DNA from: Escherichia coli
Lineage (GTDB): Bacteria > Pseudomonadota > Gammaproteobacteria > Enterobacterales > Enterobacteriaceae
DNA length: 64,000 nt
Direction: 5' to 3' (one strand)
Assembly: GCF_030013205.1 (NCBI RefSeq)
Contig: NZ_CP122648.1
A program made the translations under genes and the position numbers. Shown here one piece after another: positions 57,850 through 58,062 of this stretch. The notes beneath the pieces are model-generated. The model saw nothing but the letters and a program-made list of their open reading frames with translations, made no database searches and had not been told where the DNA came from. The stretch's first letter is position 1. The number at the start of each line of letters is the position of its first letter.

Positions 57850-58062
57850 AGGTTGCACTCTCTCACATTTTTTGCGGTTGCACCTTTCAAAAATGTTAAC
57901 TGCCGCAGAGAAAAAGTCTGAGTTATTTTTTTAATCCCTGTCATATCGATTTCTTTTATTAACATTTCATTCATTTTTAAGCTTGCTACGCAGGTCACAT
58001 TTAACATGGTTGCACAAAGTTGCAACATCATGGATATTTCACGATAACGTTAAGTTGCACCT
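57850..58062. promoter_or_regulatory. put control region with five GTTGCA PutA operator motifs
   Basis: GTTGCA at 57852, 57887, 58009, 58019 and 58054 in the putP-putA intergenic DNA. Confidence 0.7.

What the first reader, a model, noticed from the sequence alone, without database searches (positions are those of the whole stretch)
57850..58062. put control region with five GTTGCA PutA operators; rut sigma-54 promoter at 62913-62928
These regulatory motifs are conserved and readable directly. They confirm the orientation and start choices for putA (58086) and rutA (62957) and show that the right-hand end of the window is ordinary core genome.
Basis: established knowledge. Interest (0 to 1): 0.15.

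Follow-up and report, generated by a model that had tools for sequence, protein, structure and literature searches.

The report
E. coli put operators, rut promoter

Summary
Five GTTGCA hexamers lie on the + strand at 57852, 57877, 58009, 58019 and 58054, in the 422-bp putP-putA spacer (P about 2e-7). An exact sigma-54 motif lies at 62913-62928. Both regions are E. coli core genome, present in more than 5,419 of 5,426 complete genomes. Both match published K-12 data: PutA binds only this spacer, and the identical 17-mer is a sigma-54 ChIP-seq site.

Comparison across about 80 Enterobacteriaceae species adds detail. Operators 1-4 are invariant with fixed spacing. Operator 5 is exact only in E. 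coli and its closest relatives.

putA does start at 58086. The rutA start at 62957 agrees with the K-12 annotation, but the promoter cannot confirm it. In other genera that ATG is out of frame, followed by a stop, replaced by AGG, or absent. All RutA homologues begin at 63014.

Found in passing:
- a strongly covarying stem-loop in the putP 5' UTR (57715-57737);
- a conserved element with two GGA motifs in the rutA leader (62940-62977).

Neither matches an Rfam family.

Verdict: already known and ordinary, with one correction and two side leads.

The parts
56155..57663 (-). putP, sodium/proline symporter (502 aa)
   Evidence: ORF; RefSeq annotation of an identical region; Pfam SSF, E 1.7e-149
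57671..57676 (-). putP ribosome-binding site, UUGGAG; GGAG is invariant across genera
57688..57708 (-). Second putP-leader hairpin (CGGCAA/UUGCCG). A published Term-seq RNA 3' end maps to 57708
   Evidence: 81.9% of cells paired and 4 of 6 pairs with compensatory change, but absent in several genera. The 3' end is K-12 coordinate 1079260 in the supplement of PMC7815308
57715..57737 (-). Conserved putP 5'-UTR stem-loop: 8-bp stem, invariant loop N-CGUUCC
   Evidence: CGTTCCGG is present in 78 of 80 spacers. 91.7% paired against at most 47% for slid controls; 6 of 8 pairs compensated. RNAalifold predicts the same helix. The covariance model hits once per put locus and nowhere else in 0.94 Mb
57757..57757 (-). 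Mapped putP transcription start (K-12 coordinate 1078434)
   Evidence: supplement of PMC3415461; its 51-nt upstream sequence matches the window
57764..57792 (-). Proximal putP promoter inferred from the mapped start: -35 TTGTGA (57792..57787), 17-bp spacer, -10 CAGGAT (57769..57764)
   Evidence: both hexamers lie in conserved blocks of alignment A1
57822..57848 (-). ymdG small ORF (MKNSVAEH in the K-12 annotation). A 40-aa version runs 57944..57822 and overlaps operators 1 and 2
   Evidence: NC_000913.3 annotation; PMC6001520; coordinates
57852..57857 (+). PutA operator 1 (GTTGCA)
   Evidence: invariant in 78 Enterobacteriaceae loci
57877..57882 (+). PutA operator 2 (GTTGCA), 25 bp from operator 1
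   Evidence: lies within TTTGCGGTTGCACCTTTCAAA at 57871-57891
57984..57999 (+). CRP-like site TGCTACGCAGGTCACA (inferred). Its TGCTAC is TGCAAC, an inverted fifth operator, in Salmonella, E. albertii and Kluyvera
58009..58014 (+). PutA operator 3; overlaps the inferred putA -35 (TTGCAC, 58010-58015)
58019..58026 (+). PutA operator 4 (palindrome GTTGCAAC), 10 bp from operator 3
58033..58038 (+). Inferred putA -10 (GATATT), nearly invariant across genera; no mapped start was available
   Evidence: invariant columns of alignment A1; inference
58054..58059 (+). PutA operator 5. It shares 13 bp with operator 2 (GTTGCACCTTTCA) and is exact only in E. coli and its closest relatives
58086..62048 (+). 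putA, trifunctional repressor and enzyme (1320 aa)
   Evidence: Pfam PutA RHH, Pro_dh and Aldedh domains; residues 1-52 match PDB 2GPE and 2RBF
62056..62083 (.). Hairpin between the convergent putA and rutR genes. The published putA RNA 3' end maps to 62089
62088..62726 (-). rutR, TetR-family repressor (212 aa)
62789..62826 (+). Two NtrC-like sites: TGCACTTTCATCGCGCA (62789-62805) and TGCATGTTTTATGTGCA (62810-62826), about 120 and 140 bp upstream of the predicted start
   Evidence: conserved blocks in alignment A4; assignment to NtrC rests on the recalled consensus
62833..62848 (+). RutR-box-like site, TTGACCGTTTAGTCCA
   Evidence: conserved TTTGACC....AGTC block; consensus recalled from memory
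62881..62893 (+). IHF-like site, TAACATATTAATA (inferred)
   Evidence: conserved AT-rich block
62912..62928 (+). rutA sigma-54 promoter, CTGGCATCCGCTTTGCA; predicted transcription start about 62939
   Evidence: identical to ChIP-seq site OS10 of PMC4591121; identical in K-12; conserved across genera
62940..62977 (+). Conserved rutA leader element: outer stem ACGCGGC/GCCCCGT, first GGA at 62953-62955, inner hairpin UGC-AGGAU-GCA at 62958-62968. It contains the ATG at 62957
63002..63016 (+). rutA ribosome-binding site GAGAGG (63002-63007) and the conserved start codon at 63014

Best explanation
The window's right end is the ordinary E. coli efe-putP/putA-rutR/rutA core region.

**put region.** The 422-bp putP-putA spacer is the put control region. 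[quoted passage not shown] It binds an array of same-orientation GTTGCA operators and represses both divergent genes. When proline reduces its flavin, PutA moves to the membrane and repression lifts. This switch is established knowledge and was not tested here. Operators 3 and 4 lie 10 bp apart, over the inferred -35 and spacer of the putA promoter. Operator 5 lies in the putA leader. Operators 1 and 2 lie 25 bp apart, upstream in the putP promoter and leader zone, next to the small ORF ymdG. Four operators are an ancient, fixed feature of Enterobacteriaceae. The fifth is a recent addition in the E. coli lineage.

**rut region.** The rutR-rutA spacer has a standard enhancer-dependent design: two NtrC-like sites, a RutR box, an IHF-like site, and a sigma-54 promoter at 62912-62928 with a predicted start near 62939. 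The rutA coding sequence most likely begins at 63014, not 62957. The 62957 ATG lies inside a conserved element of the 5' leader.
For: - Motif positions and clustering.
- The spacer differs from K-12 at 2 bases, neither in a hexamer, and the five sites sit at identical positions.
- Operators 1-4 are invariant, with 25-bp and 10-bp spacing, in all 78 loci that include the spacer. Operator 5 is exact only in loci L001-L006.
- PutA has the RHH domain (Pfam PF21775), and residues 1-52 match PDB 2GPE and 2RBF.
- Genomic SELEX shows PutA binds only the putA/putP spacer (PMC8249747).
- The sigma-54 17-mer equals ChIP-seq site OS10, with a predicted start 18 nt before the annotated rutA (PMC4591121).
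- RpoN holoenzyme SELEX gives a peak at rutA/rutR (PMC8743547).
- The promoter and upstream blocks are conserved across genera.
- rutA start.
- Core-genome status.
Against: - The primary paper that defined the five operators (Zhou et al. 2008, J Mol Biol) is not in the held library. Which operators control which gene is cited from memory.
- No mapped putA start was available, so the overlap of operators 3 and 4 with the promoter is inferred.
- The one mapped putP start (57757) lies 95-125 bp downstream of operators 1 and 2. How they repress it, or whether they act on an unmapped upstream promoter, is not shown.
- The rutA transcription start is predicted, not mapped.
- The K-12 curated annotation and PDB 5WAN use the long RutA form. 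Some initiation at 62957 in E. coli cannot be excluded.
Confidence: 0.92

Rival explanations
1. rutA really starts at 62957, as the reader and the K-12 annotation say, and the conserved sequence after it is a 19-residue N-terminal extension of RutA.
For: NC_000913.3 annotates a 382-aa RutA. PDB 5WAN was built from the long form. The frame is open from 62957 into rutA in the window and in 8 further loci.
Against: - In 8 loci the ATG is out of frame, and in 2 it is followed by an in-frame stop, including an E. coli-like genome (L005).
- In some metagenome lineages it is GTG or AGG.
- Ten leader types lack the element, with the promoter only 56-61 bp from MKIGVF.
- Only 1 nt separates GGA from this ATG.
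- The 63014 ATG has GAGAGG 6 nt upstream.
- The Pfam domain begins at residue 1 of the short form.
- NCBI's pipeline and PDB 6SGG use the short form.
Confidence: 0.12
2. The conserved rutA leader sequence is a short translated upstream ORF (leader peptide MQDAAPR...) that tunes rutA expression. In E. coli it happens to be fused in frame to rutA.
For: The variable positions in the element fall every third base, and the first seven codons are largely kept. In Silvania and a related genome the upstream ORF's stop overlaps the rutA ATG (TGATG), as in translational coupling.
Against: - Four unique leaders have AGG in place of ATG and no other in-frame start, yet keep the sequence.
- That change is compensated across the inner stem (U-A to G-C).
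- The other 'third-position' changes are also stem partners or mismatch positions.
- The GGA is too close to the ATG to act as a ribosome-binding site.
Confidence: 0.2
3. Operator 5 (58054) is an incidental hexamer with little function, and the working PutA array is the four conserved sites.
For: Exact GTTGCA at this position is found only in E. coli and its closest relatives. E. albertii, Salmonella, Citrobacter, Klebsiella and others lack it.
Against: It shares 13 bp with operator 2. From memory, the published work counts five functional operators, three of them needed for putA repression. Other genera carry their own extra hexamers at other positions (-42, about -103), which suggests recurrent selection for a fifth site.
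Confidence: 0.15
4. The GTTGCA cluster is chance, or reflects promoter -35-like hexamers, rather than repressor sites.
For: TTGCA resembles the -35 consensus and the sigma-54 -12 element. Operator 3 probably doubles as the putA -35 (inference).
Against: P is about 2e-7. The four sites are invariant, with fixed spacing, across about 20 genera while the flanks diverge. PutA selects only this spacer in genomic SELEX.
Confidence: 0.02

Closest known systems
E. coli K-12 put control region (five GTTGCA PutA operators; Zhou et al. 2008 J Mol Biol, recalled from memory; PDB 2RBF)
   Same: Same locus. The spacer is 422 bp in both, with 2 substitutions outside the hexamers, and the five sites sit at identical positions. 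The PutA RHH residues match the crystallised domain.
   Different: Nothing of substance. One flanking base of operator 5 differs (58066, A versus T).
Salmonella enterica put control region
   Same: Divergent putP/putA. Operators 1-4 have identical sequence and spacing. The putP leader stem-loop is present.
   Different: No hexamer at the operator 5 position. Instead there is an inverted TGCAAC about 105 bp before putA, where E. coli has TGCTAC.
NtrC/sigma-54 promoters of the nitrogen-regulated class (glnAp2 type); the rutA promoter of K-12
   Same: GG-N10-GC core, two upstream enhancer-like sites about 120-140 bp away, and an AT-rich IHF-like block between them. The 17-mer is identical to the K-12 ChIP-seq site.
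   Different: A RutR box lies between the enhancer sites and the promoter. The transcription start is predicted only.
Ribbon-helix-helix repressors with arrays of short repeats (Arc, MetJ, CopG)
   Same: A small RHH domain reads a short motif repeated several times across a divergent promoter region. CopG-family chains are the next-best PDB matches.
   Different: Here the RHH is fused to a 1,300-residue enzyme, and release is by relocation to the membrane, not by a small co-repressor (established knowledge).
CsrA/RsmA binding sites (GGA in a short hairpin loop; CAGGAUG repeats of CsrB)
   Same: The rutA leader has two GGA motifs 9-10 nt apart, the second as CAGGAUG in a 5-nt loop on a 3-bp stem. 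A divergent lineage shows both GGAs in hairpin loops.
   Different: No binding data. The rutA ribosome-binding site has no GGA and lies about 45 nt downstream. The published CLIP-seq supplements list a CsrA peak in rutR but nothing for rutA, and rut is probably little expressed in the conditions used (my assumption).

Membership tests
PutA-autoregulated put control region | Divergently transcribed putA and putP sharing one spacer | tested here: met
   putP 56155-57663 (-) and putA 58086-62048 (+)
PutA-autoregulated put control region | PutA of the trifunctional type, with an N-terminal RHH DNA-binding domain | tested here: met
   Pfam PF21775 at residues 11-43, E 1.2e-21; PDB 2GPE and 2RBF match residues 1-52
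PutA-autoregulated put control region | Multiple GTTGCA operators in the spacer, more than chance allows | tested here: met
   Five same-strand sites, P 2.4e-7; four invariant across 78 loci
PutA-autoregulated put control region | PutA binds these sites and proline relieves repression | not testable with these tools
   Literature only: genomic SELEX gives a single target (PMC8249747); operator mapping recalled from Zhou et al. 2008, which is not held
Sigma-54-dependent promoter | TGGCAC-N5-TTGCW core with GG and GC 10 bp apart, oriented toward the gene | tested here: met
   62913-62928, the only exact match in the window; conserved upstream of rutA in 24 of 26 genome loci
Sigma-54-dependent promoter | Sigma-54 occupies the site in vivo | not testable with these tools
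   The identical 17-mer is ChIP-seq peak OS10 in K-12 (PMC4591121) and an RpoN SELEX peak (PMC8743547)
Sigma-54-dependent promoter | Upstream enhancer sites for an activator (NtrC) | tested here: inconclusive
   Two conserved 17-mers at 62789-62805 and 62810-62826 resemble the recalled NtrC consensus; no binding data were examined
Sigma-54-dependent promoter | Mapped transcription start about 12 bp after the GC element | not tested
   Only a predicted start, 19 bp after the motif centre, equal to 62939. No rutA entry in the start-site tables searched
RutA long form (start at 62957) | An in-frame N-terminal extension conserved among orthologues | tested here: not met
   Frame varies, stops intervene, the start codon is lost, or the element is absent; homology and the Pfam domain begin at 63014
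CsrA-binding leader (considered for the rutA leader) | At least two GGA motifs, at least one in a hairpin loop | tested here: met
   GGA at 62953-62955 and 62962-62964, the second in the loop of UGC/GCA. The inner hairpin is kept in 25 of 25 sequences, with a U-A to G-C swap in two
CsrA-binding leader (considered for the rutA leader) | CsrA binding, or csrA-dependent expression | not testable with these tools
   No rutA peak in the CLIP-seq supplements; there is a peak in rutR. No paper links CsrA and rutA
Described RNA families (Rfam 15) | A match of the putP or rutA leader to any curated model | tested here: not met
   No hit at E <= 1 in 57600-63200, both strands

The most novel reading that the evidence does not exclude
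Both control regions carry an undescribed post-transcriptional layer.

1. The putP 5' UTR holds a stem-loop conserved across Enterobacteriaceae. Its stem changes freely by compensatory substitution while the loop CGUUCC never changes. The loop is complementary to the putP ribosome-binding site, so it may control translation, or set the RNA 3' end seen 7 nt downstream.
2. The 'long' RutA N-terminus of the K-12 annotation is really a conserved leader element that displays two GGA motifs. It could be a CsrA site linking pyrimidine breakdown to the Csr system.

The probability given is for the putP stem-loop being a real, functional and previously undescribed cis-regulatory RNA.
Probability: 0.4. 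Interest if true: 0.4.

Novelty: already known. Interest (0 to 1): 0.15.

Why it matters
As a scan result it matters little. It shows that the right-hand 8 kb of the window is ordinary, well-studied core genome and can serve as a boundary for whatever lies to the left.

Three things are still useful:
- The rutA start disagreement (K-12 curated 382 aa versus 363 aa) affects protein databases and structural work. The comparative evidence here favours the short form.
- The PutA operator array has a conserved four-site core plus a fifth site that differs between lineages. That is a small natural experiment in how a repressor array evolves.
- Two conserved leader RNA elements give concrete, cheap targets for testing post-transcriptional control of proline uptake and pyrimidine catabolism.

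Tried and rejected
- **Operator literature.** I tried to read the primary operator papers (PubMed 18586269; PMC2665032, PMC2664619, PMC3715380, PMC2242416, PMC2666929, PMC4285992, PMC1458803). None is held. Full-text searches for PutA with GTTGCA found nothing relevant.
- **Mapped transcription starts.** One putP start was found. Nothing was found for putA or rutA in the Cappable-seq supplements. The mBio operon paper has no supplements held, and the dRNA-seq paper is not held.
- **Promoter scan.** The consensus scan of the spacer gave no more hits than shuffles.
- **Rfam.** No match.
- **Folding energies.** The rutA leader and the putP UTR are not more stable than shuffled sequences (z from +0.87 to -0.84). 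The structural case rests on covariation alone.
- **N-terminal extension.** The idea that the MQDAAPR sequence is a conserved extension of RutA was rejected.
- **PGAP ORF.** The 69-aa 'hypothetical protein' annotated by PGAP inside the put spacer (58031..57822, -) was rejected as a gene. Its length varies from 26 to 72 aa across genera, and its conserved N-terminus is simply operators 3 and 4 read backwards.
- **Second model hit.** A second hit of the putP-hairpin model at 33970-34011 has a different, longer loop and lies in unrelated AT-rich DNA. I treat it as chance.

Full report
**What is in the sequence.** The region 57500-58400 shows putP ending (on the minus strand) at 57663 and putA starting at 58086, with a 422-bp spacer of 39% G+C between them. 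GTTGCA occurs on the + strand at 57852, 57877, 58009, 58019 and 58054. The one minus-strand match, at 58021, exists only because site 4 is the palindrome GTTGCAAC. Across the whole window the hexamer is no more common than in shuffles (45 found, 51 expected). The cluster is therefore the signal. About 0.13 same-strand matches are expected in 422 bp, giving a Poisson P of 2.4e-7. No other 422-bp stretch of the window holds six matches on either strand, and only 1 of 20,000 Markov simulations of the spacer reached five. The sites lie 234, 209, 77, 67 and 32 bp before the putA ATG. Sites 2 and 5 share 13 bp (GTTGCACCTTTCA). It is the only exact match to TGGCAYN5TTGCW in the window, but a bare match of that kind appears in 27 of 100 shuffles, so it needs outside support.

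**Identity of the region.** The spacer is 100% identical to E. coli O157:H7 strains and is present in 5420 of 5426 complete E. coli genomes. The rutR-rutA spacer is present in 5421. Pfam confirms the proteins, including the PutA ribbon-helix-helix domain. PutA residues 1-52 match the crystallised DNA-binding domain in PDB 2GPE, 2RBF and 2AY0. Against K-12 MG1655 the put spacer has two substitutions, neither in a hexamer, and the five sites are at the same positions. The sigma-54 17-mer is identical. The statement that this end of the window is ordinary core genome is correct.

**Agreement with published data.** The paper that defined five GTTGCA operators (Zhou et al. 2008, J Mol Biol 381:174) is not in the held library. 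I cite it from memory: five operators, three needed for putA repression and two for putP, and a crystal structure on operator 2. The 21-mer I recall from that structure is present at 57871-57891. Held papers do support the picture:
- Genomic SELEX finds that PutA binds only the putA/putP spacer (PMC8249747).
- Reviews describe repression from operators between the divergent genes, released when proline drives PutA to the membrane (PMC5879082).
- For rut, Bonocora et al. list ChIP-seq site OS10 with the motif CTGGCATCCGCTTTGCA on the rutA strand. They predict a start 19 bp after the motif centre, 18 nt before the annotated rutA, and mark it as 'predicted' in EcoCyc (PMC4591121). In window coordinates the predicted start is 62939.
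- RpoN holoenzyme SELEX gives a peak at the same place (PMC8743547).

**Comparison across species.** I fetched the put locus from 80 species of Enterobacteriaceae and located the spacer in 78. Operators 1-4 are present as exact hexamers in nearly every one, with the same 25-bp and 10-bp spacings and the same orientation, while the sequence between operators 2 and 3 is freely variable. Operator 5 is different. The exact hexamer at -32 occurs only in E. coli and its closest named relatives (loci L001-L006). E. albertii, Salmonella, Citrobacter, Klebsiella, Enterobacter and the rest have unrelated bases there. Several lineages have their own extra hexamer elsewhere:
- an inverted TGCAAC about 101-105 bp before putA in Salmonella, E. 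albertii and Kluyvera, where E. coli reads TGCTAC;
- a direct copy at about -103 in Pseudocitrobacter and Enterobacter mori;
- an inverted copy at -42 in Pluralibacter and others.

The array is therefore a conserved four-site core plus a lineage-specific fifth site.

**Other conserved blocks in the put spacer.**
- GATAT.T at 58033-58038 lies 17 bp after TTGCAC (58010-58015, inside operator 3). I read these as the putA -10 and -35, which would put operators 3 and 4 on the promoter and operator 5 at about +10. This is inference; no mapped putA start was available.
- A published putP start (K-12 coordinate 1078434, supplement of PMC3415461) maps to 57757. Its -10 (CAGGAT) and -35 (TTGTGA) fall in two further conserved blocks. 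Operators 1 and 2 lie 95-125 bp upstream of that start.
- The K-12 annotation places a small gene, ymdG, at 57848..57822, four bases from operator 1. It was first reported as a 40-residue protein starting at 57944 (PMC6001520). Translation of ymdG implies a further putP promoter upstream, on which operators 1 and 2 would sit more conventionally. That promoter is not mapped here.

**The rut spacer.** Alignment of 15 genera shows, in order from rutR:
- two 17-mers resembling the NtrC consensus (62789-62805, 62810-62826);
- a RutR-box-like TTGACCGTTTAGTCCA (62833-62848);
- an AT-rich IHF-like block (62881-62893);
- the sigma-54 core.

**The rutA start.** NCBI's pipeline calls 63014 in the O157 genome. 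Structural biologists have used both: 5WAN the long form, 6SGG and 6SGL the short. Both starts are downstream of the predicted transcription start, so the promoter confirms neither. Four lines of comparative evidence favour 63014:
- In 26 genome loci and 60 distinct metagenome sequences, homology begins at MKIGVF.
- The Pfam luciferase-like domain begins at residue 1 of the short form.
- GAGAGG lies 6 nt before 63014, whereas only one base separates GGA from 62957.
- Of 19 loci that carry the upstream ATG, 9 have it fused in frame, 2 in frame with a stop (including the E. coli-like L005), and 8 out of frame. Some metagenome lineages have GTG or AGG instead. Ten leader types lack the whole segment, with the promoter only 56-61 bp from MKIGVF.

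I conclude that 63014 is the conserved start. I put about 0.12 on the long form being the main product in E. coli.

**What the sequence around 62957 is.** From about +1 to +40 of the predicted transcript there is a strongly conserved block, (A/G)CG.GG(C/U)...GGA..(U/G)GCAGGA.GC(A/C)...CC.CG(U/C). RNAalifold proposes an outer stem (62940-62946 with 62971-62977, one central mismatch) around an inner hairpin, UGC-AGGAU-GCA. On 25 distinct sequences, 91.6% of cells pair, against at most 65% when partners are slid. Three pairs show compensatory change. One of them is the inner-stem U-A to G-C swap, found in exactly the sequences that turn ATG into AGG. This speaks for an RNA-level constraint and against a required start codon.

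The evidence is modest. Few independent events underlie it, and folding energies are no better than shuffles. The variable bases also fall every third position, which a translated leader peptide (MQDAAPR...) would explain too.

The loop motif CAGGAUG, plus a second GGA 9-10 nt upstream, is the signature of CsrA sites. In a divergent lineage both GGAs sit in 3-bp hairpins that differ by a compensated pair. I found no data linking CsrA to rutA. The E. coli CLIP-seq supplements list a peak in rutR only. Rfam has no match.

**A stronger side finding in the put spacer.** The most conserved bases of the whole spacer outside the operators are CCGGAACG at 57721-57728. Read on the putP strand, this is the loop and closing pairs of a stem-loop at 57737..57715: CUGUUACC-CCGUUCC-GGUGGCAG.
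- CGTTCCGG is present in 78 of 80 spacers.
- On 53 distinct 34-mers, 91.7% of cells pair, against at most 47% slid. Six of eight pairs show compensatory change, with 104 doubly changed cells and 24 extra pair types. No shuffle of 500 reached the observed pairing, covariation score, doubly-changed-cell count or pair-type count. A 21-genus alignment of the whole leader gives the same result.
- RNAalifold predicts exactly this helix as the only consensus structure.
- Frequent G-U pairs place the structure on the putP-sense strand.
- It lies at +21 to +43 of the mapped putP transcript. A published Term-seq 3' end (supplement of PMC7815308) maps to 57708, seven bases after the stem.
- A covariance model built from it hits once per put locus and nowhere else in 0.94 Mb.
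- A second hairpin (57708..57688) also covaries but is missing in some genera.
- The invariant loop UUCC(GG) is complementary to the putP ribosome-binding site, (C/U)(U/C)GGAG. This suggests, but does not show, control of translation.
- I found no description of it in the held literature or in Rfam. The older put sequence papers are not held, so an early mention of the dyad cannot be excluded.

**Verdict.** The interpretation needs one correction (the rutA start) and one refinement (four ancient operators plus a recent fifth). The finding itself is already known and of low interest. The two leader RNA elements are the only parts that go beyond what the databases searched here contain.

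Noticed in passing
window 57715-57737 (minus strand): A stem-loop in the putP 5' UTR, conserved across Enterobacteriaceae, with an invariant loop N-CGUUCC and very strong stem covariation (6 of 8 pairs compensated). 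No Rfam match. Its loop is complementary to the putP ribosome-binding site.
   Followed up: yes
window 57688-57708 (minus strand): A second putP-leader hairpin (CGGCAA/UUGCCG) that also covaries but is absent in several genera. A published Term-seq RNA 3' end maps to 57708, between the two hairpins.
   Followed up: partly
window 62940-62977 (plus strand): A conserved rutA leader element with two GGA motifs, the second in a small hairpin loop (CAGGAUG), closed by an outer stem. It contains the ATG used as the rutA start in the K-12 annotation. It is absent from Enterobacter cloacae complex, Buttiauxella and Dryocola, where the sigma-54 promoter sits about 58 bp from rutA.
   Followed up: yes
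window 57822-57848 and 57822-57944 (minus strand): ymdG, a documented small protein gene (8 aa in the current K-12 annotation, 40 aa as first reported). It lies next to or over operators 1 and 2. Its start codons are not conserved outside Escherichia.
   Followed up: partly
window 57822-58031 (minus strand): RefSeq genomes annotate a 69-aa 'hypothetical protein' inside the put spacer. Its length varies from 26 to 72 aa across genera, and its conserved N-terminus is just operators 3 and 4 read backwards, so it looks spurious.
   Followed up: yes
window 57984-57989; loci L007, L013, L017, L031, L034: Where E. coli reads TGCTAC, Salmonella, E. albertii and Kluyvera read TGCAAC, an inverted GTTGCA. 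These lineages have a different fifth PutA site, overlapping a CRP-like sequence.
   Followed up: partly
window 62789-62893: Conserved blocks upstream of the rut promoter: two NtrC-like 17-mers, a RutR-box-like site and an IHF-like AT-rich block.
   Followed up: partly
window 62056-62089: A GC-rich hairpin between the convergent putA and rutR genes. The published putA RNA 3' end maps 6 nt after it, as expected for a shared terminator.
   Followed up: no
window 33970-34011 (minus strand): The putP-hairpin model gives a second hit (22.7 bits). It is an 8-bp stem, GUAUUACC/GGUAAUAC, with a longer and different loop, in AT-rich DNA upstream of a 187-aa ORF. Probably chance.
   Followed up: partly
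locus L001 1820-4491 (O157:H7 strain PV15-279), versus window 55511-56154: That strain carries about 2 kb more between efeU and putP, including a 447-aa hypothetical protein gene. The window lacks this insertion.
   Followed up: no
rutR coding region (window about 62264-62440, from K-12 1074528-1074704): The published E. coli CsrA CLIP-seq supplements list a CsrA peak inside rutR.
   Followed up: no
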